Source: Candidatus Omnitrophota bacterium (lineage in GTDB: Bacteria > Omnitrophota > Gorgyraeia > Zapsychrales > Zapsychraceae). Taken from it: 64,000 bases of DNA. Position numbers and translations under genes: made by a program. The notes below the pieces were generated by a model. It saw only the letters and a list, made by a program, of their open reading frames with translations, had not been told where the DNA came from and made no database searches. This document shows, piece after piece, positions 19,159 to 26,230 of the stretch (position 1 is its first letter; each line of letters starts with the position of its first letter). The DNA lies in NCBI GenBank assembly GCA_029261065.1, contig JAJDCB010000030.1, positions 196,876 to 260,875 of the forward strand. Direction: 5' to 3'.

Positions 19159-19614
19159 ATGTCAAGCGCTATTGCCACCAACAAAAAAGCTTTTCGCGAT
19201 TTTTTCCTCTCTGATAAATGGGAATGCGGGATTGCCCTTTTAGGTGGTGAGGTTAAATCCATTCGAGCCGGGCATGTCAATTTTAAAGATACCTTTGCTC
19301 GCATCGATAAAGGCGAGATCTTTCTTTATAACCTTCATATTGAGCAATATAACGCTGCCAGCCACATGAATAAAGAGCCGGATCGCGTGCGTAAACTTTT
19401 GATGCATAAGAAAGAAATTAAGCGTCTTGAAGGTAAACTAAATCAGCAGGTGGGAACGCTCATTCCAACGAAGATTTATTTTAATAAGCGAGGCTTAATT
19501 AAGGTTGAGATTGCCTTGGGACGAGGAAAGAAGCTTTATGATAAGCGTGAAGCGATTAAGAAGCGGGATGTGGATCGCCAGATTGGGCGGGAGATGCGTA
19601 ATCGGCGGGGGTGA
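19159..19614 (+). CDS. smpB: SsrA-binding protein
   Basis: GIALLGGEVKSIR...YNLHIEQY...KIYFNKRG pattern typical of SmpB; 151 aa. Confidence 0.9.
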   Translation: MSSAIATNKKAFRDFFLSDKWECGIALLGGEVKSIRAGHVNFKDTFARIDKGEIFLYNLHIEQYNAASHMNKEPDRVRKLLMHKKEIKRLEGKLNQQVGTLIPTKIYFNKRGLIKVEIALGRGKKLYDKREAIKKRDVDRQIGREMRNRRG

Positions 19615-19846: not shown

Positions 19847-22039
19847 ATGTCAAATCCTAAACTAACCCTTATTAAATCGATTACCTTCTTATCGGCCTTT
19901 TTGATGTTTCAAATTGAGCTTATTATAGGAAAGATTTTTTTGCCAAATTTTGGCGGAAGTTTTGTCGTTTGGGGAGCCTGTGTCGTTTTTTTTCAAGCGG
20001 CATTGTTGTTAGGGTATATGTATTCCCATTGTGTCGTTCAAAAAATAGGTATATATAAATATCGTTATATTCATCTCATTTTATTAGGGCTGCCATTTTT
20101 GTTCTTTCCAGGAAAGCCGTTGGCGATGCGTTATGAGATTAGTACGCTTCCTATGGTTCTTGAAATATTTTTAAAGCTTATTTTTACCATTGGTCCAGCT
20201 TTTTTTGTGCTCTCAACGATGAGCATTATTTGGCAGGCATGGTTGTCACAATCCACTATTGAAGAGCGATCAAATCCGTATACTCTCTTTGCCGTTTCCA
20301 ATTTTGGCTCTTTTGCAGCTCTTCTTACATATCCTTTTTTTATAGAATCTTATTTAGATCTTTTTCAACAGCAACATATCTGGCGGTGGATGTATGTAGG
20401 AATGTTTTTTCTTCAGGCGCTGGCTTTATTTGTAGTGAATGTCGATAAAAAACTGGATAGCAAGCGTGAGAAGGTTAAGAAAGTCTCTCTCTCTAAAGGA
20501 ATGCCAATCTTAATTTATGGAGCTGCGGGTGTCATGATTTTTTTATCTGTCACAAGCATTATCACAGCCGAGATTGTACCCATGCCTTTGTTGTGGGTTC
20601 TACCGTTAACACTCTATTTGTTTTCTTTTGTTTTGATTTTTAAAAAGAAGTCCTGGGCTCCTGCGTGGATGGTTAAGCGTTTTGATGTGTTAGTAGGGTT
20701 TGCTGTTCTTTTTTATTTTTTTACACAGATGAAGGCCTTTCCTATTTTGTTTGAATTAGCTGTGCTTTTGATGATTACATTTTGGACATGTCTTTACTGT
20801 CAGTATCAGGTTTTTCGTCTTCGCCCTAAAGATTTAAGAAATTTAACATCCTTTTATTTGTATTTGGCTTTAGGTGGGTTCTTAGGAGGTGTTCTTGTGA
20901 CGTGGTTTGTTCCTTTGTTTTCGACGACATTTGTTGAATACTTCTTATCATTTTTTGTTATTTATTTGGCGGGTCTTAAGGATAAATCTTTACGATTAAA
21001 TAAATTTTATGTCGCTCGTCTTTGTCTTTATGTTCTTGCTATTCTTTTTGTCTGGCCTTTGGTGTTTAAGCAGTACAATTTTTGGGGAATGATTTTGATT
21101 ATTGCTGTGATGAGTTTTGCCTTTAAGGAATTAGCTCGGCATCGCTTTGGGATACTTAGCGTATTGTTGATTTTATCTTCTTCTTTAAATGTTCTGGAGC
21201 CGATTTGGAACAAGCAAGTCGACATTTATCGTGATCGTAATTACTATGGTATTAGCAAAATTTCAGAAGAAGAGGGGGTAAGGTATTTTCTTCATGGGGC
21301 AACAATTCACGGGGCGCAATTTTTAAACCCAAAAGGCCTCGATATTCCTTTAACTTATTTTTCATCCACGTCTCCGATTGGAGAAGTTATGCAATCCGAT
21401 AATTTTGATTTTAGAAAAATTGGTGTAATCGGTTTAGGTGTTGGGACGTTAGCTACATATTTAAATGATGGGGAACATCTAGATTTTTTTGAGTTGGATC
21501 CTGATGTTGAAAGTTTGGCGAAGAATTATTTTTCATATTTAAAGAACGCCAAAGGAAAGATTCAACATTTTACGGGTGATGCCCGAATTACTTTAGAAAA
21601 GATGCCGTTACAGAACTATCAATTGTTAGTAGCAGATGCCTTTAGCGGTGATGCCGTTCCTGTCCATTTGATAACAGAGGAGGCTATGCATCTTTATCAA
21701 AAACATTTAGCCCCGGAAGGGTTGGTGTTATTTAACATCACGAATCGCTATATTAATAATCAATACCCCATATTAAGCACGGCTCTTAGTACTGATGCTA
21801 AATTGTGTTATAAGGTTGCAAATTTTGATAGTGTTGTGTTTTTTTCATCCACTTGGGTTGCGGTCACATGGAATGATGAGGTTTATAAGACATTAACAGA
21901 AGAGATGGGGTGGTTAACAGTGGATAAAAATTTGGCAAAAAGGGTAAGAAAATGGAATGATCGATATACGAATATTCTACCTTATGTCAAATTTAAAGAA
22001 CTTGGCTATGCCCTTAAAAATTTTGATTTTTTAAGATGA
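19847..22039 (+). CDS. membrane-anchored spermidine synthase-like (PABS) protein
   Basis: ~12 TM segments then IGVIGLGVGTLATYL...FELDP...GDA...LLVADAFSGD (SAM-dependent aminopropyltransferase fold). Confidence 0.7.
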   Translation: MSNPKLTLIKSITFLSAFLMFQIELIIGKIFLPNFGGSFVVWGACVVFFQAALLLGYMYSHCVVQKIGIYKYRYIHLILLGLPFLFFPGKPLAMRYEISTLPMVLEIFLKLIFTIGPAFFVLSTMSIIWQAWLSQSTIEERSNPYTLFAVSNFGSFAALLTYPFFIESYLDLFQQQHIWRWMYVGMFFLQALALFVVNVDKKLDSKREKVKKVSLSKGMPILIYGAAGVMIFLSVTSIITAEIVPMPLLWVLPLTLYLFSFVLIFKKKSWAPAWMVKRFDVLVGFAVLFYFFTQMKAFPILFELAVLLMITFWTCLYCQYQVFRLRPKDLRNLTSFYLYLALGGFLGGVLVTWFVPLFSTTFVEYFLSFFVIYLAGLKDKSLRLNKFYVARLCLYVLAILFVWPLVFKQYNFWGMILIIAVMSFAFKELARHRFGILSVLLILSSSLNVLEPIWNKQVDIYRDRNYYGISKISEEEGVRYFLHGATIHGAQFLNPKGLDIPLTYFSSTSPIGEVMQSDNFDFRKIGVIGLGVGTLATYLNDGEHLDFFELDPDVESLAKNYFSYLKNAKGKIQHFTGDARITLEKMPLQNYQLLVADAFSGDAVPVHLITEEAMHLYQKHLAPEGLVLFNITNRYINNQYPILSTALSTDAKLCYKVANFDSVVFFSSTWVAVTWNDEVYKTLTEEMGWLTVDKNLAKRVRKWNDRYTNILPYVKFKELGYALKNFDFLR

Positions 22040-22061
22040 TCGTTGAGCGCGGCTTTATTTT

Positions 22062-22089
22062 TGCATATATCTTCAGAACCCGTTATAAT
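22062..22089 (+). promoter_or_regulatory. sigma70-like promoter for ssrA (TTGCAT-16 nt-TATAAT)
   Basis: TTGCAT at 22062-22067, TATAAT at 22084-22089, ~37 nt before the tmRNA 5' end. Confidence 0.55.
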
Positions 22090-22126
22090 TAATGACATAG
22101 ATTTGATCATTTAAATTAAAGGCTCC

Positions 22127-22542
22127 GGGGGTGACATGGTTTCGACTTGGGTTATCGGAGTTTGAGTGGCATGCGGAGGACGTCTGGTTGGCCTCCTAAA
22201 AAATCCAGGCACACAATAAACGCTAACGATGAAACGTTGACGTTTGCTAGCTTGACTAATTCAACAATGGACAGCGATGTTCCTGTTGAACCATCACTAG
22301 CAACAGCACCAGCCTTATCGGTCTAATTCACTGGTAAGCCCTCTTGTAGCAGGCCTGTGGGTTACAAGTGGAACAAGCAGGCTGGTCTTATAAATTTGCT
22401 TCATTTATAAGATAAGATTTAGAAGCTAGTTTCATTTACGTTTGTTTATTTAGAGAAGTGAAGCGAAATTAAAAATAAACTAAGCATGTAGAAGCTCTTA
22501 CAAAGGAACCAAAGGACCGGGGTTCGATTCCCCGCACCTCCA
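22127..22542 (+). ncRNA. ssrA: tmRNA (transfer-messenger RNA)
   Basis: 5' GGGGGTGACATGGTTTCGAC and 3' GGACCGGGGTTCGATTCCCCGCACCTCCA (T-arm + acceptor) match tmRNA ends; tag frame starts GCT AAC GAT GAA (ANDE...) at 22222, stop at 22324. Confidence 0.85.
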
Positions 22543-22683
22543 TTTAGTTGTAGTGCATCTCCACCCCATTGAGGTGCATAGGCTTATGATAGTATATTGT
22601 TTTAATTCTCGATTGGTGCCCATTTAGTGCCCAAAGTATCACATTTTTCTTGCATTCATTCTATTGACTATTATAATAAACCC

Positions 22684-22893
22684 ATGAGTAAGATTTTTAA
22701 TCCTTTAAAAGATGTAGGTCGATTGATTGAGCCATTTCCTGGCGAATGGGTCACATTATCTTCTGATAAAAAGCAAGTTGTTGGGCATTCAAAAAAAATG
22801 GAAACAGCATTAAATCAAGCTTACAAAAAAGGCGTTGAACATCCTTTCCTTATTAAATCTCCTGATGGTAACATCGCTGCAGTCATCTATTGA
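22684..22893 (+). CDS. small DUF5678-like protein (cassette 1, gene A)
   Basis: GEWVTLSSDKKQVVGHSKKMETALNQAYKKG...P.LIKSP fits the DUF5678 pattern (recalled from memory); 64% identical paralog at 23661. Confidence 0.6.
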   Translation: MSKIFNPLKDVGRLIEPFPGEWVTLSSDKKQVVGHSKKMETALNQAYKKGVEHPFLIKSPDGNIAAVIY

Positions 22894-23333
22894 GTTATAT
22901 CACTCTCCCATATACAGAATTAGTTATTCCGGCAAAAAACAATAGGCCAAGAAAGATTGTTCGTCGTCCATTATTAAATACAAAATTATTTTATGGTAAG
23001 GCAGAAACGATGTTTGATTTTTCATCTCTTGTAGACTCTGGTGCCGATTTTTGTATCTTTCCTGCAAAGTATGGATCGATACTCGGGTTGGATGTTAAAA
23101 AAGCTCAATCAATTATGACTTATGGCATTGGTGGCCAAGAGACGATATATTTTCATAAAGTTAAGATAGGTGTGTTTATTGGAAATGAGATTTGGAAATT
23201 TACAGTCAAAGCTGGATTTTCTTATAGAATGAATATAGAAGGAACAGGCTTGCTTGGTCGCAAAGGTTTTTTTGATCAATTTAAAGAAATTGTATTTAAT
23301 CAAAAGAAAAAGATGTTTCGTATAATGGAATAA
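22890..23333 (+). CDS. retropepsin-like aspartic protease (cassette 1, gene B)
   Basis: LVDSGADFCIFP (D-S-G-A catalytic motif), GIGG flap-like, GLLGRKGFF; TTG start overlapping gene A stop (TTGA). Confidence 0.65.
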   Translation: MSYITLPYTELVIPAKNNRPRKIVRRPLLNTKLFYGKAETMFDFSSLVDSGADFCIFPAKYGSILGLDVKKAQSIMTYGIGGQETIYFHKVKIGVFIGNEIWKFTVKAGFSYRMNIEGTGLLGRKGFFDQFKEIVFNQKKKMFRIME

Positions 23334-23460
23334 TTTAGTGCCCAAACGGTGCCCATCTTACACCAAAACAACGGTAACGAACCGTAACCAAATGTAAACA
23401 ACCGCATAGTTTAAATTAGTTGTATTCGACGACAATTTAGTTAATCGGTTGATATTTATG

Positions 23461-23500
23461 GGGTTACACCGACGGGGATTATCGATTCCCCGTACCTCCA
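23461..23500 (+). repeat. tmRNA 3'-end-like fragment (T-arm + acceptor half)
   Basis: GGGTTACACCGACGGGGATTATCGATTCCCCGTACCTCCA vs tmRNA GGACCGGGGTTCGATTCCCCGCACCTCCA; similarity continues ~45 nt downstream. Confidence 0.8.
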
Positions 23501-23660
23501 TTTAGTTGAAGTGCATATCCATCCTGTTGCGATGTATAGACTTATGATTTCATAAAGTATTAATTTTCAATTGGTGCCCATTTAGTGCCCAAAAGTTATA
23601 GTAATTTCAATATGATTTATAATTGCAAACATTATAGTTTTGTAATATGATAAATTAATT

Positions 23661-23870
23661 ATGAAAAAGAAATTTATTCCTGAAAAAGATATGGCAGACG
23701 TTATACTCCCCTTTGCAGGGCAATGGGTCACGTTGTCGTCGGATAAGACGAAGGTTTTGGGGCATTCTAAAAAGATGGAAACCGCTTTAAACCAAGCCTA
23801 CAAAAAGGGTGAGAGTACACCACATTTAATCAAATCTCCAGATTCCAGCACCTCAGTATTTATTTTTTGA
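23661..23870 (+). CDS. small DUF5678-like protein (cassette 2, gene A)
   Basis: paralog of 22684..22893 (GQWVTLSSDKTKVLGHSKKMETALNQAYKKG). Confidence 0.6.
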   Translation: MKKKFIPEKDMADVILPFAGQWVTLSSDKTKVLGHSKKMETALNQAYKKGESTPHLIKSPDSSTSVFIF

Positions 23871-24310
23871 AAACACATACTTTACAATACACAAAACTAT
23901 CAATCCCCTCTCAAGGAAAAGTTCCAAAAAAGGAATTATACTGTCCTCTTTTAGATACTTTTTTATTTAACAAGTCTATTCAAACTCATTTTTCATTCAA
24001 ATCCATTGTTGATTCTGGAGCCGATTTTTGTGTGTTTCCTGAAAAGTTTGGAAAGTTGATTGGATTAGATGTTAAAGCTGGTGATAAAGTTTTAACTTTT
24101 GGTGTTGGTGGTATTGAGACACTTTATTTTCATAAAATTCAGATAGGGGTACATATTAAAGGTGAACTTTGGAAATTAGATTGTAAAGCTGGCTTTTCTG
24201 CAAAGCTAAATCCAAAAGGAATTGGTCTGCTTGGACGGAAAGGATTTTTTGATCAATTTGCAGAGATTGCCTTTAATCAAAATAAAAAAATGTTCCGTAT
24301 TAAAGAATAA
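23867..24310 (+). CDS. retropepsin-like aspartic protease (cassette 2, gene B)
   Basis: IVDSGADFCVFP, GVGG, GLLGRKGFF; TTG start overlapping stop, same as cassette 1. Confidence 0.65.
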   Translation: MKTHTLQYTKLSIPSQGKVPKKELYCPLLDTFLFNKSIQTHFSFKSIVDSGADFCVFPEKFGKLIGLDVKAGDKVLTFGVGGIETLYFHKIQIGVHIKGELWKLDCKAGFSAKLNPKGIGLLGRKGFFDQFAEIAFNQNKKMFRIKE

Positions 24311-24438
24311 TGTAGTGCCCAAATGGTGCCCATCTTACACCAAAACAACGGAAAACAACCGTACTCAAATGTAAACAATCGCACAGTTTAAATTAGTTGT
24401 TTCCGACGATATTTTAGTTAATTTGTTGATATTAATGA

Positions 24439-24477
24439 GGTTACAGCGACGGGGCTTATCGATTCCCCGCACCTCCA
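24439..24477 (+). repeat. tmRNA 3'-end-like fragment (third copy)
   Basis: GGTTACAGCGACGGGGCTTATCGATTCCCCGCACCTCCA. Confidence 0.8.
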
Positions 24478-24675
24478 CTTTGATTCGCTCAAATGCTTTC
24501 GCGTTTGAGCTACGCAGAAGTAAATTCTTACTCAGATCTAAAAGTTTGAGCGAGGCGAGTGCTTCTACGAAGCTCCAACACGAAAGTATTGGAGCGTAGT
24601 AGAGCGCTGCAGTTCAAGATTATTAATTGAACGAAGCCTAAAAAATTCAAATGGTTAAAAAGTAAGGGTGAAAAA

Positions 24676-25245
24676 ATGATAAAGAAAAGTCTTCTGATTA
24701 TAATTTTACTCATGATGATATGTCCTCGCACATCAGCTGAAAGTGTGCGTGAGCGATTAAGAAAAGCTCGGATGCCTAAGGATAGTACCCATGAAAATGA
24801 GACACCTAAAAAAGTAAAACAAAAGACTACTTCTCAAGAAAGTTTATTTGGAAAACCTTTCAACCCAAGTAAGATCGAATTTAGCCCTTATTATGCAGGG
24901 CAATTATTTTTTACCGAAATTAACGAAAAAGATCTGTCATCAAGGACTGTTAGTATTATCACCCTTATTGGTGCCCATAAAGATACATTCGAGGAGGAGA
25001 AAATTGCTAGTGAGAATCAGGTTTTCCAAAAATCTAATTCTAATACGGGGAATAAGGGTGGTGGCCTGACTTTAGTTAATAAAGGAAGAATAGTACCTAT
25101 TGAGGGAGATTGGGACGTGAAGGTATCTTTAGGAAAAGTTGAAAATAATAAGATATCAGGGCATATATTGATTACCGTACCTGAGCATAATACGAAGTTA
25201 AACAGAAATTTTATCGCAAATATAAAGCCTCGTCGAAAAGAATAG
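24676..25245 (+). CDS. secreted hypothetical protein (cassette 3 cargo)
   Basis: signal peptide then AESVRERLRKAR; ends before the third copy of the right-boundary motif. Confidence 0.55.
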   Translation: MIKKSLLIIILLMMICPRTSAESVRERLRKARMPKDSTHENETPKKVKQKTTSQESLFGKPFNPSKIEFSPYYAGQLFFTEINEKDLSSRTVSIITLIGAHKDTFEEEKIASENQVFQKSNSNTGNKGGGLTLVNKGRIVPIEGDWDVKVSLGKVENNKISGHILITVPEHNTKLNRNFIANIKPRRKE

Positions 25246-25582
25246 AAAACTGTTTTAGTGCCCCAAGGGTGCCCATCTTGCATCAAAACAACGGCATTTT
25301 AGTGTAACCAAATGTAAGCAACTGCGAAACGCCTCTCCTACATAATTCTTCCCCCCATAAGGCAGTCCCAAATAATTTTGATAGACGATTATCTAACATA
25401 ATAATCGTCAAACCACAGGTCATACTAAAAAGTATGGGCCTTGGGAGCTAAAGTTGTATATAATGTTTCAAGATAAAGTCAAAGACTATCAATTTGAAAA
25501 ACATTTAAAGTCCTATGCAGAAACGGCTTTTTTAAGAAAAAGATTAGTTTCAGGAATAAAAGGGCGAAGGAGTGTTAAGGTC

Positions 25583-26107
25583 ATGAAAAAATTATTATTA
25601 TGTGTATTAATTTTTAGTCTCACGACACCCACATTTGCTGAATCTATCAAAGAAAGGTTGAGAAAGACGCGAGAAAAAGAAAAGATGGGACTGGAAAAAA
25701 ATACTACAAGTAATAACTCTAAATTGAGAAGTAAACAGAAAAAACAAGAAACGTATGATCCTTATAAGAAAGAGGATGATGCGGTTATTCAAGAATTGCA
25801 AAAATCAGTTGATAAATCTTTAACGGATATGAAAAGAAGTGAAAAAGGTATGGTTAACGGTTTTGGCGAAACGACAGGCAATATTATTAGTAACACGGAA
25901 GAAATTCTAAAAGGAAAAAGTCTGGAAGATATTAATAGAATCAATGCAAAAATGGAACGACAATTTGAAGAAATGAAGAAGAAAGATAAAAAAGAGCGAA
26001 ATGAAAGAACTGAAAAGATGCTAGAGGATATGCGCAAAGATTCTAAACAGTGGCAGGAGCAGAATAAAGGAAAAAAGATGTCAGTTGAGAAAATATATGG
26101 CAAATAA
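25583..26107 (+). CDS. secreted Lys/Glu-rich protein, N-terminal paralog of 24676
   Basis: MKKLLLCVLIFSLTTPTFAESIKERLRKTREKEK; RBS AAGGAG; start moved from 25454 to ATG 25583. Confidence 0.5.
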   Translation: MKKLLLCVLIFSLTTPTFAESIKERLRKTREKEKMGLEKNTTSNNSKLRSKQKKQETYDPYKKEDDAVIQELQKSVDKSLTDMKRSEKGMVNGFGETTGNIISNTEEILKGKSLEDINRINAKMERQFEEMKKKDKKERNERTEKMLEDMRKDSKQWQEQNKGKKMSVEKIYGK

Positions 26108-26230
26108 TAGTCTTTAGGGTCAATTAAGGGGGCTGAGAGCCCGTATTTGATTTGCTATTCATTAGTGGAGGGAGAGTTAGTTAAAGCGTTTGCTATTTTC
26201 TTAATTTTTTCTAAAAGGTATGGTTGAAGG

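What the first reader, a model, noticed from the sequence alone, without database searches (positions are those of the whole stretch)
22612..25330. Swapped-order boundary motifs GGTGCCCA / TAGTGCCCAAA delimit each cassette
Left boundaries (22612-22634, 23570-23592) read TTGGTGCCCATTTAGTGCCCAAA, directly upstream of gene A. Right boundaries (23334-23360, 24312-24338, 25255-25281) read TAGTGCCCAAAYGGTGCCCATCTTRCA, after the last gene of each cassette including cassette 3, followed by a conserved ~100-nt tail. The same two half-sites in swapped order at both ends suggests recombinase, partition or regulator binding sites, or a promoter-operator recycled as cassette ends.
Basis: seen in the sequence. 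Interest (0 to 1): 0.6.

Follow-up and report, generated by a model that had tools for sequence, protein, structure and literature searches.

The report
Integrase docking sites flanking tmRNA-gene mini-islands
The repeated GTGCCCA pairs are most likely the accessory ("arm-type") docking sites of a lambda-like integrase, sitting in the attachment-site arms of two tiny integrase-less mobile cassettes inserted in tandem into the end of the tmRNA gene, which is a well-known kind of feature seen here in a little-studied phylum.

Summary
Two direct GTGCCCA heptamers, 11 bp apart, occur at five places (L1, R1, L2, R2 and a degenerate R3) and nowhere else in the 64-kb window.

A tmRNA gene (ssrA, 22127-22545) lies just upstream, and its last 19 nt are repeated at 23482-23500 and 24459-24477. 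The "cassettes" are therefore two ~0.96-kb elements integrated in tandem at ssrA. The recombination boundaries are the tmRNA-end repeats, not the motifs.

The motif pairs sit at fixed distances from those cores: 73 nt downstream for L and 145 nt upstream for R. The same geometry appears in a Candidatus Omnitrophota genome and in metagenome contigs. There, full-size islands bounded by the same pairs encode a three-domain tyrosine integrase with a lambda-type N-terminal arm-binding fold, plus an excisionase-like protein.

GTGCCCA pairs also flank tRNA-fragment cores next to integrase genes in many viral contigs. A permuted control motif does not.

Across ten P arms, only the pair and the core are invariant.

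Best reading: these are arm-type integrase sites of attL, attP-like and attR junctions of non-autonomous (CIME-like) mini-islands. No integrase is present in the window, and binding is inferred, not shown. This is a known kind with a new member, of modest interest.

The parts
22127..22545 (+). tmRNA gene (ssrA), the integration target (attB side of attL). smpB lies upstream at 19159-19614.
   Evidence: Rfam RF00023, 179.8 bits, E 1.4e-71. ARAGORN missed it.
22524..22542 (+). Core copy 1: TCGATTCCCCGCACCTCCA, the functional 3' end of the tmRNA (T-loop 3' part, T-stem and acceptor strand).
   Evidence: Three copies in the window against 0.01 expected.
22543..22612 (+). P' spacer of unit 1: element-derived sequence between the core and the L pair.
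   Evidence: 75% identical to the unit-2 spacer. The 73-nt distance is identical in both units.
22613..22635 (+). L1, the P'-arm pair of arm-type sites: TTG-GTGCCCA-TTTA-GTGCCCA-AA (heptamers at 22616-22622 and 22627-22633).
   Evidence: 23/23 identical to L2. GGTGCCCATTTAGTGCCCAA is also present at the same position in Omnitrophota locus L037.
22681..22893 (+). Cargo gene A1 (70 aa, weak DUF5678 match).
   Evidence: ORF list. Pfam PF18929, E 0.0011, below the curated cut-off.
22890..23333 (+). Cargo gene B1 (147 aa, retropepsin-like with a DSGAD motif). It overlaps A1 by 4 nt.
   Evidence: Weak Pfam Asp_protease_2/RVP hits, below the cut-off. Homologues listed.
23334..23360 (+). R1, the P-arm pair of arm-type sites: TTTA-GTGCCCA-AACG-GTGCCCA-TCTTA (heptamers at 23338-23344 and 23349-23355).
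   Evidence: TTTAGTGCCCAAACGGTGCCCATC is identical in L037. It is the invariant block of the 10-arm alignment.
23361..23481 (+). Tail 1: the rest of the P arm between R1 and the core.
   Evidence: 86% identical to tail 2. The R-pair-to-core distance is 145 nt, and 134-146 nt in all relatives.
23482..23500 (+). Core copy 2: a displaced tmRNA 3'-end fragment with one mismatch, preceded by an imperfect T-arm mimic (GGGGATTATCGATTCCCC).
23338..23591 (+). attP-like junction between unit 1 and unit 2: R1, tail, core 2, spacer, L2.
   Evidence: The same double-pair architecture flanks tRNA 3' fragments in 13 viral contigs.
23570..23592 (+). L2, the P'-arm pair of unit 2 (heptamers at 23574-23580 and 23585-23591).
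23661..23870 (+). Cargo gene A2 (69 aa).
   Evidence: Its CDS is 65% identical in nucleotides to A1.
23867..24310 (+). Cargo gene B2 (147 aa).
   Evidence: 58% amino-acid identity to B1.
24311..24337 (+). R2, the P-arm pair of unit 2 (heptamers at 24315-24321 and 24326-24332).
24338..24458 (+). Tail 2: the rest of the P arm of unit 2.
24459..24477 (+). Core copy 3: the attR core, a displaced tmRNA 3'-end fragment at the end of the array.
   Evidence: Exact 19-mer match. The sequence downstream diverges from units 1 and 2.
24479..24620 (+). B' flank: probably chromosomal sequence with strong hairpins. It resembles, by eye, the sequence after the last core in L037.
   Evidence: Fold -25.2 kcal/mol with a 10-bp stem. 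The resemblance rests on reading, not on an alignment.
25254..25325 (+). R3: a solo, slightly degenerate P-arm relic (GTGCCCC at 25258, GTGCCCA at 25269, plus about 45-70 nt of tail) with no core. It follows gene C (24676-25245).
   Evidence: It abuts a truncated GIY-YIG remnant. Similar solo relics occur in L037, L042, L044, L045 and L049.

Best explanation
**What it is.** The GTGCCCA pairs are arm-type (accessory) binding sites for the N-terminal domain of a heterobivalent, lambda-type tyrosine integrase. They lie in the P' arm (the L pair, 73 nt 3' of the core) and the P arm (the R pair, 145 nt 5' of the core) of attachment sites. The crossover core of those sites is the last ~19 nt of the tmRNA gene.

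**What the locus is.** The locus is ssrA followed by two ~0.96-kb non-autonomous (integrase-less, CIME-like) mini-islands in tandem. Each mini-island consists only of att arms plus a two-gene cargo. The layout is:
- attL: tmRNA, core, L1
- an attP-like junction: R1, tail, core, L2
- attR: R2, tail, core, chromosomal flank
- a decayed solo P-arm relic (R3) further downstream

**How it works (inferred mechanism).** An integrase supplied in trans by a related ssrA island would bind both arm pairs and the core. This would bridge and bend the DNA into an intasome. Strand exchange within the tmRNA-end identity would integrate or excise a unit while regenerating a functional tmRNA 3' end.

**Shown versus inferred.**
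- Shown: the sequence architecture, its conservation, and its co-occurrence with integrases elsewhere.
- Inferred: protein binding, present-day mobility, and the source of the integrase.
For: 1. **Target and cores.** The tmRNA gene is at 22127-22545. Its 3' 19-mer occurs three times in direct orientation, bounding the units.
2. **Fixed geometry.** L pairs start 73 nt after a core end and R pairs end 145 nt before the next one. In L037, L041, L043, L047, L048, L050, L051, L054 and L056 the values are 55-77 nt and 134-146 nt.
3. **Cognate integrase in relatives.**
   - L050: tmRNA end, 77 nt, GGTGCCCAAATGGTGCCCA, 20 nt, then int (P0017).
   - L043 carries the same int plus an HTH_17 excisionase-like gene, then an R pair, tail and core.
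   - L051/L054: smpB, tmRNA, pair, int.
   - L051 also shows an int-bearing island joined to a one-gene int-less cassette through an R-core-L junction.
4. **Integrase architecture.** The catalytic domain matches PF00589 at E 1e-36, with a SAM-like core-binding domain. The N-terminal 45 residues are predicted as three beta-strands plus a helix, pLDDT 82-88. The model aligns over 340-376 columns with full-length lambda Int structures 1z1b, 1z1g and 5j0n.
5. **Generality.** Thirteen viral contigs carry a pair, then ~110-150 nt, a tRNA 3' fragment, ~60-80 nt, then a pair. Of 24 viral pair hits, 10 lie within 500 nt of an integrase-like gene, against 0 of 9 for a permuted control. Several of these integrases carry Pfam arm DNA-binding domains.
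6. **Constraint.**
   - Unit 1 versus unit 2 identity: L 100%, R 93%, tail 86%, cargo CDS 65%, third codon positions 55%, promoter region 28%.
   - In ten P arms from seven loci, only the pair and the core are invariant.
7. **Independence from cargo.** The same pairs flank PIN, Phd/VapC, NYN, hydrolase or int. A-B homologues in L003, L004 and L057 lack them.
8. **Precedent.** Cluster K1 mycobacteriophages integrate at the tmRNA gene. Their attP has two pairs of 11-bp arm-type repeats flanking the core (PMC3203893).
Against: - No integrase gene is present in the 64-kb window: tblastn with 10 integrases, including P0017/P0020, found nothing. The sites have no demonstrable partner in this genome, and the rest of the genome could not be read.
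- No binding or recombination data exist.
- The N-terminal 60 residues of the Omnitrophota integrase hit no Pfam arm-domain model. The fold assignment rests on a prediction with overall pTM of only 0.42.
- Solo R pairs without a core (R3, L042/L049, L044, L045) need the extra assumption that they are relics.
- Pairs on both arms, in the same orientation, could also serve another accessory protein.
- In some viral contigs the motif is in the opposite orientation relative to the tRNA fragment.
Confidence: 0.8

Rival explanations
1. The pairs are binding sites for a different accessory protein of the same recombination system: an excisionase/RDF (HTH_17 type) or the unknown ~200-aa protein encoded before int in some islands. 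They would not bind the integrase N-domain.
For: An HTH_17 excisionase-like gene is present in the L043 island. A conserved 197/208-aa ORF lies between the L pair and int in L051/L054. RDFs typically bind tandem direct repeats (background knowledge).
Against: The pairs lie on both arms at lambda-like arm-site distances, whereas RDF sites are usually on one arm (background knowledge). The only protein type seen next to the pairs across both the Omnitrophota islands and the varied viral contigs is the integrase; other neighbouring genes were not surveyed systematically. L050 has no 200-aa ORF.
Confidence: 0.08
2. The GTGCCCA pairs are themselves the crossover sites of a cassette-specific recombinase. 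This is the first reader's 'cassette boundary' model: insertion at a GGTGCCCATC target would duplicate a heptamer and give the swapped order.
For: L and R share the 13-mer TTTAGTGCCCAAA, and the outer heptamers have G...T flanks. A triple GTGCCCA-TTTG-GTGCCCA-AACA-GCGCCCA in L037 looks like an L/R fusion.
Against: The true direct repeats bounding the units are tmRNA 3' ends, with element-type sequence on the inner sides. No empty GGTGCCCATC target was seen. In int-bearing islands the left pair has the same order as the right pair. Tyrosine recombinase core sites are inverted repeats, not direct ones (background knowledge). The L037 triple has no spacer or core on its left.
Confidence: 0.04
3. 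The pairs are operators for transcriptional control of the cargo, for example autoregulation by gene A as an antitoxin-like protein, recycled at both ends.
For: The L pairs lie 15-30 nt upstream of promoter-like hexamers of gene A. In L050 the pair lies between a TTGACA-17-TAAGAT promoter-like site and the int start.
Against: The motif is retained with unrelated cargo and on the 3' side of the cargo. A-B homologues in three other contexts have no such motif. A promoter-occluding effect of Int binding remains possible, but as a secondary role.
Confidence: 0.04
4. The motif is a generic dispersed intergenic repeat (REP-like) with no link to recombination.
For: Solo copies without a core exist (R3; L042, L044, L045, L049).
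Against: There are no other copies in 64 kb even with 3 mismatches. Elsewhere the motif is tied to tmRNA/tRNA ends and integrase genes, unlike a permuted control. R3 abuts a truncated gene, as expected of a relic.
Confidence: 0.02

Closest known systems
attP of Cluster K1 mycobacteriophages (CrimD, Adephagia and others), which integrate at the tmRNA gene (PMC3203893)
   Same: The common core is the 3' end of the tmRNA gene. Two pairs of ~11-bp arm-type repeats sit one pair on each side of the core. The integrase has an N-terminal arm-binding domain.
   Different: In CrimD the P3/P4 pair is inverted relative to P1/P2, whereas here all sites are direct. That paper reports a stem-loop terminator between the core and P3; the hairpins in the spacers here are not significant. 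Those elements are complete phages carrying int next to attP; here the elements are ~1-kb cassettes without int. The repeat sequence is different or unknown, the host phylum differs, and their sites are likewise only predicted.
Lambda Int arm-type sites (P1, P2, P'1-P'3) and the lambda intasome (PDB 1z1g, 5j0n)
   Same: Short accessory repeats sit in both arms at roughly +60-80 and -110-150 nt from the core, adjacent sites are about one helical turn apart, and the integrase has three domains. The predicted Omnitrophota Int aligns with full-length lambda Int.
   Different: The site sequence differs (GTGCCCA here, against the lambda consensus C/AAGTCACTAT, from background knowledge). The core here lies in a tmRNA gene. 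There are two sites per arm here. No IHF, Xis or Fis sites were identified.
CIMEs (cis-mobilizable elements) and accretion of integrative elements (PMC5704250), and tandem ssrA islands lacking integration modules in Dehalococcoides (PMC3146451)
   Same: The elements retain attL and attR, lack integrase and transfer genes, and sit in tandem with each other or with an integrase-bearing element at one tRNA/tmRNA target. L051 shows exactly such an accretion.
   Different: CIMEs are described as decay products of ICEs or IMEs, mainly in Firmicutes. These units are minimal (att arms plus a 1-2 gene, often TA-like, cargo) and show no int remnants. The Dehalococcoides islands use a serine recombinase and a 20-bp repeat, with no arm sites reported.
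Integron gene cassettes (attC / IntI)
   Same: Arrays of small, promoter-poor or single-operon cassettes, often toxin-antitoxin modules, sit at a fixed chromosomal platform and are handled by a tyrosine recombinase.
   Different: There is no attC-type imperfect inverted repeat: the boundary repeats are direct. Each unit carries ~290 bp of lambda-type att arms. The target is a tmRNA gene end. No platform-resident integrase lies next to the array in the window.

Membership tests
Arm-type sites of a heterobivalent (lambda-type) tyrosine integrase att site | Short repeated sequences distinct from the core, present in both arms flanking the crossover core. | tested here: met
   Pairs lie on both sides of core copies 2 and 3, and 3' of core 1. 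The heptamer is unrelated to the core sequence.
Arm-type sites of a heterobivalent (lambda-type) tyrosine integrase att site | The core is shared with the chromosomal target (the 3' end of a tRNA or tmRNA gene) and is duplicated at the element ends. | tested here: met
   tmRNA gene by Rfam. The 19-mer TCGATTCCCCGCACCTCCA occurs three times in direct orientation.
Arm-type sites of a heterobivalent (lambda-type) tyrosine integrase att site | Conserved distance and phasing of the sites relative to the core across related elements. | tested here: met
   L pairs start 55, 73 or 77 nt after the core. R pairs end 134-146 nt before the core, in 10 loci. The period within pairs is 11 bp.
Arm-type sites of a heterobivalent (lambda-type) tyrosine integrase att site | The sites are more conserved than the surrounding arm DNA. 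| tested here: met
   Segment identities between units. The 10-arm alignment has only the pair and the core invariant.
Arm-type sites of a heterobivalent (lambda-type) tyrosine integrase att site | A cognate integrase with an N-terminal arm-binding domain is encoded by the element in the window. | tested here: not met
   No integrase-like sequence was found in the 64-kb window by tblastn. The units hold only genes A and B.
Arm-type sites of a heterobivalent (lambda-type) tyrosine integrase att site | A cognate integrase with an N-terminal arm-binding domain is encoded by related elements that carry the same sites. | tested here: met
   L050, L043, L051 and L054. The beta3-alpha N-domain is predicted. 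Full-length lambda Int matches by fold. Pfam arm-domain hits occur in integrases of viral loci, but no Pfam arm-domain hit in P0017 itself.
Arm-type sites of a heterobivalent (lambda-type) tyrosine integrase att site | Direct binding by the Int N-domain, and a requirement of the sites for integrative or excisive recombination. | not testable with these tools
   This needs EMSA or footprinting and recombination assays.
CIME-like non-autonomous integrative element | Flanked by attL- and attR-type sites of a site-specific integrase. | tested here: met
   Each unit runs core, P' arm, cargo, P arm, core.
CIME-like non-autonomous integrative element | Lacks its own integration and transfer genes. 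| tested here: met
   Only two small cargo genes per unit. tblastn for integrases was negative.
CIME-like non-autonomous integrative element | Derived by decay of an autonomous element, and mobilised with or by an integrase-bearing partner (accretion). | tested here: inconclusive
   L051 shows an int-bearing island accreted to a one-gene cassette. No int remnants, circles or empty sites could be examined for the window's units.
REP / generic dispersed intergenic repeat | Many copies at unrelated intergenic sites of the genome. | tested here: not met
   No copies outside the ssrA locus in 64 kb, allowing up to 3 mismatches. The whole genome was not available.
Integron attC site | An imperfect inverted repeat (R''-L''...L'-R') able to fold as a hairpin, with an adjacent intI/attI platform. 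| tested here: not met
   The boundary motifs are direct repeats, and no inverted repeats were found at the boundaries. No integrase lies next to the array.

The most novel reading that the evidence does not exclude
In Candidatus Omnitrophota, the ssrA locus may act as an integron-like cassette platform. A dedicated clade of lambda-type integrases (P0017 family) would capture, stack and reshuffle very small non-autonomous cassettes, each holding one or two genes, often toxin-antitoxin or nuclease modules. Each cassette would carry a complete set of attP arms with GTGCCCA arm sites. The mini-units would then be a propagating class of miniature integrative elements rather than decay products. 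A wider implication is that one arm-site heptamer would be recognised by related N-terminal domains across distant phyla.
Probability: 0.2. Interest if true: 0.65.

Novelty: new member of a known kind. Interest (0 to 1): 0.35.

Why it matters
**Annotation.** The finding corrects the reading of this locus. The region is a tmRNA gene followed by tandem integrated mini-islands, and the conspicuous motif marks their attachment-site arms.

**A testable recognition sequence.** It gives a concrete candidate site (GTGCCCA, two copies 11 bp apart) for a large, uncharacterised integrase clade of Candidatus Omnitrophota, with 632 homologues at E < 1e-20.

**A possible search signature.** The double-pair pattern may help locate attP, attL and attR ends of ssrA/tRNA islands in metagenomes.

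**An open question.** Integrase-less units of under 1 kb with full att arms and toxin-antitoxin-like cargo recur in several genomes. This raises the question of whether such cassettes are actively mobilised in trans.

Tried and rejected
- **ARAGORN on the window** found no tmRNA or tRNA. Rfam was needed.
- **Literature search by sequence** (GTGCCCA with 'arm-type', attP or integrase) returned only irrelevant phiC31 and primer hits. I therefore could not establish whether this heptamer has been described as an arm site.
- **Contexts of A-B gene-pair homologues** (L002, L003, L004, L057) show no motif, tmRNA or integrase nearby. This rules out a motif tied to the A-B module. The P0010 contigs had no DNA available.
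- **The genome-contig scan with the 19-mer L motif** did not recover the source genome. Two of the four hits (L039, L040) lie inside a conserved transporter CDS and are chance or coding matches.
- **Hairpins in the P' spacers as element-supplied tmRNA terminators:** the folds in the window's spacers are not better than shuffles (z -0.45 and -0.10), so I make no claim here.
- **The 'heptamer as crossover core, swapped order by insertion' model** was considered and rejected. See the rival explanations.
- **A dif/Xer-like reading** (GGTGCGCATAA resembles GGTGCCCATTT; recalled from memory) was rejected because the units here are direct repeats without a 6-8 bp central region.
- **A promoter scan** gives no more sites than shuffles do.


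Full report
**1. The observation**

Reading 21800-26200 and pattern searches confirm the motif. Two exact GTGCCCA heptamers lie on the + strand, start to start 11 bp apart.
- L1: 22616/22627
- R1: 23338/23349
- L2: 23574/23585
- R2: 24315/24326
- R3, a fifth and slightly degenerate pair: 25258 (GTGCCCC) and 25269

The window contains 11 heptamers against 3.5 expected, and 0 of 100 shuffles reach that number. The pair pattern, even allowing three mismatches, hits only these five places in 64 kb. The quoted strings are right; the coordinates are 1-2 nt off. The tail after R1 and R2 is real (121 nt, 86% identical), and its first ~45-70 nt also follow R3.

**2.

Rfam finds a tmRNA gene at 22127-22545 (179.8 bits). 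ARAGORN failed on it. smpB lies upstream. The last 19 nt of the tmRNA gene, TCGATTCCCCGCACCTCCA, recur at 23482-23500 (one mismatch) and 24459-24477 (exact). That is three copies against 0.01 expected.

The three-way alignment shows that each ~0.96-kb unit has the same order:
- core
- a 70-nt spacer
- the L pair
- a promoter-like region
- gene A
- gene B
- the R pair
- a 121-nt tail
- core

Immediately 5' of core copies 2 and 3 the sequence is an imperfect T-arm mimic (GGGG-A/CTTATCGATT-CCCC), not the true tmRNA T-arm (GGGG-TTCGATT-CCCC). This is what an element-borne attP integrating into the 3' end of ssrA would leave.

After core copy 3 the sequence changes to hairpin-rich DNA. By eye, this DNA resembles what follows the last core in a related genome.

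The locus is therefore ssrA with two small elements integrated in tandem. The recombination boundaries are the tmRNA-end repeats, not the GTGCCCA motifs.

**3. Cargo**

Gene A (69-70 aa) matches DUF5678 weakly. Gene B (147 aa, with a DSGAD motif) matches retropepsin-type aspartyl protease models weakly. All hits are below the curated cut-offs.

Gene B has few homologues (15). Where DNA is available, the A-B pair sits in other contexts with no GTGCCCA motif: L003, L004 and L057. L002 holds only a 93-aa partial gene B homologue and has no motif pairs. The motif therefore belongs to the arms, not to the A-B module.

**4. Related loci with the same architecture**

The window's organism is a Candidatus Omnitrophota bacterium. 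Its PDH E1 protein is 72-83% identical to proteins named Omnitrophota or Omnitrophica, and its GC content is 37.5%.

*L037.* A 19-mer scan of species-representative genomes recovered an Omnitrophota MAG (L037) with this layout:
- tmRNA
- an L-like pair
- a PIN-type cassette
- an R pair, tail and tmRNA fragment
- L (GGTGCCCATTTAGTGCCCAA)
- a Phd/VapC cassette
- R (AGTGCCCAAACGGTGCCCATC), tail and tmRNA fragment
- the hairpin flank
- a GIY-YIG gene
- a solo triple of heptamers with a partial tail

*Psychrobacter.* A Psychrobacter contig has the same 19-mer ~130 nt after a tRNA-Gly.

*Metagenome scan.* A scan with the R motif gave two kinds of locus. Further attR-type loci (pair, then 134-146 nt, then a tmRNA end) are L041, L043, L047 and L048. 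Solo relics are L042/L049, L044 and L045.

*Geometry.* L pairs start 55, 73 or 77 nt after a core end. R pairs end 134-146 nt before the next core end.

**5. The integrase**

L043 is an island of at least 6.3 kb that ends in an R pair, tail and core. It encodes a tyrosine integrase (cut by the contig end), an HTH_17 excisionase-like protein and a PIN protein.

The full-length integrase (P0017, 348 aa) belongs to a family of 632 homologues at E < 1e-20. Many are annotated from Omnitrophota MAGs. Its contexts are:
- L050: tmRNA end, 77 nt, GGTGCCCAAATGGTGCCCA, 20 nt, int
- L051, L054 and L056: smpB, tmRNA, 77 nt, pair, a ~200-aa ORF, int

L051 additionally shows an integrase-bearing island joined, through an R-tail-core-spacer-L junction, to a one-gene cassette that lacks int. 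That cassette ends in R, tail, core and a terminator. This is a direct example of accretion of autonomous and non-autonomous units.

P0017 has a PF00589 catalytic domain (E 1e-36) and a SAM-like core-binding domain. Its first 45 residues are predicted as three beta-strands plus a helix, pLDDT 82-88. The model aligns over 340-376 columns with full-length lambda integrase structures.

No integrase-like sequence exists in the window.

**6. Generality and control**

In IMG/VR, the pair pattern hits 24 contigs. A double-pair pattern (pair, 190-220 nt, pair) hits 10 contigs. Printed out, 13 contigs show a pair, then ~110-150 nt, then a tRNA 3' fragment (T-arm plus acceptor), then ~60-80 nt, then a pair. 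This matches window 23338-23591.

Tyrosine integrase genes abut these pairs. Several carry Pfam arm DNA-binding domains, Arm-DNA-bind_4 or _3.

Of the 24 pair hits, 10 lie within 500 nt of an integrase-like gene. A composition-matched permuted heptamer pair gives 9 hits, none near an integrase.

**7. Constraint**

Identity between the window's two units:

| Segment | Identity |
|---|---|
| L motif | 100% (23/23) |
| R motif | 93% |
| Tail | 86% |
| P' spacer | 75% |
| Cargo CDS | 65% |
| Third codon positions | 55% |
| Promoter region | 28% |

In an alignment of ten P arms from seven loci, the only invariant blocks are GTGCCCAAA-GGTGCC-ATC and the CCC..ACCTCCA core. Tails are genome-specific, whereas the pair with its immediate flanks is identical between the window and L037.

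**8. Interpretation**

The pairs behave as arm-type sites of a lambda-type integrase. They are accessory repeats on both arms, about one helical turn apart, at fixed distances from a tDNA core. They are more conserved than their surroundings and co-occur with integrases that have an arm-binding N-domain.

The window's units are non-autonomous, CIME-like mini-islands (definition: PMC5704250). They would depend on an integrase supplied in trans. Protein binding, present activity and the source of the integrase are inferred, not shown.

R3 is best read as a decayed P-arm relic. It lacks the distal tail and the core, and it is followed about 100 nt downstream by a truncated GIY-YIG gene remnant.

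The 'swapped order' holds here and in L037. It does not hold in integrase-bearing islands, where the left pair has the same order as the right pair.

**9. Comparison with what is known**

- The closest precedent is the attP of Cluster K1 mycobacteriophages. It has a tmRNA-gene core and two pairs of 11-bp arm-type repeats (PMC3203893).
- Tandem ssrA islands, some without integration modules, are described in Dehalococcoides, though with a serine recombinase (PMC3146451).
- I found no paper describing GTGCCCA as an arm site. The held library is incomplete, so this is weak evidence of novelty.

**10. Verdict**

The feature is real and non-random. It is of a well-understood kind, newly seen in Omnitrophota: arm-type integrase sites in att arms.

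The mildly unusual aspects are the minimal size and repeated occurrence of integrase-less cassettes with full att arms, and the reuse of one heptamer in attP sites of very different hosts.

Interest is 0.35. Confidence in the main explanation is 0.8.

Noticed in passing
window 22127-22545: ARAGORN reports no tmRNA in the window, although Rfam scores one at 179.8 bits. The gene does not encode the terminal CCA. Read by eye, the tag reading frame is unusually long: ANDETLTFASLTNSTMDSDVPVEPSLATAPALSV, 34 aa, ending in LSV rather than LAA.
   Followed up: partly
window 22681-23333 and 23661-24310; also L003 1220-1866, L004 824-1509, L057 121-779: A conserved two-gene module: a ~70-aa DUF5678-like protein overlapping by 4 nt a 147-aa retropepsin-like protein with a DSGAD motif. 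The family is rare (15 homologues) and occurs in unrelated genomic contexts and GC backgrounds. It may be a toxin-antitoxin-like or defence pair of unknown function.
   Followed up: partly
window 24479-24620; L037 2918-3090: Hairpin-rich repeats (for example GCTCAAATGC-tttc-GCGTTTGAGC followed by ACGCAGAAG) lie immediately after the last tmRNA-end repeat. Similar units occur at the same position in the Omnitrophota MAG L037. They may be REP-like elements or the native ssrA terminator region.
   Followed up: partly
window 25424-25549: A remnant of the C-terminal 42 codons of a GIY-YIG family gene (38% identity to the intact gene at L037 3125-3364, E 1e-10). It lies in frame with the following secreted-protein ORF. 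This marks a deletion or rearrangement next to the R3 relic.
   Followed up: yes
window 24676-25245 and 25583-26107: Two neighbouring secreted proteins share a signal peptide and an AES(V/I)(R/K)ERLRK N-terminus (34% identity over 71 aa). They look like local paralogues flanking the R3 relic.
   Followed up: yes
L019, L032, L033, L035, L036 (high GC) and L012, L020, L029, L030 (lower GC), IMG/VR contigs: The same GTGCCCA heptamer pairs, sometimes triples, flank tRNA-fragment cores next to only distantly related integrases (20-30% identity) in viral contigs of very different base composition. In the high-GC set with a recognisable tRNA fragment (L019, L033, L035, L036), the motif is inverted relative to that fragment. 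This could reflect shared specificity of a conserved arm-binding domain or convergence.
   Followed up: partly
L050 150-260; L051 9230-9330; L054 9185-9285: In integrase-bearing islands, the left GTGCCCA pair lies between a sigma-70-like promoter (TTGACA-17-TAAGAT or TAATAT) and the first gene of the int operon. Binding of Int there could repress its own transcription.
   Followed up: no
L037 3374-3404; L037 1272-1300: There are variants with three heptamers. One is GTGCCCA-TTTG-GTGCCCA-AACA-GCGCCCA, followed by a partial tail, after a GIY-YIG gene. The other is an irregularly spaced degenerate R inside a unit. Both suggest internal deletions or accretion scars within arrays.
   Followed up: no
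L039 2433-2451 and L040 3360-3378: The exact 19-mer GGTGCCCATTTAGTGCCCA also occurs inside a conserved membrane-transporter coding sequence in a Flavobacterium and a Bdellovibrio genome. These are coding coincidences, unrelated to att sites.
   Followed up: yes
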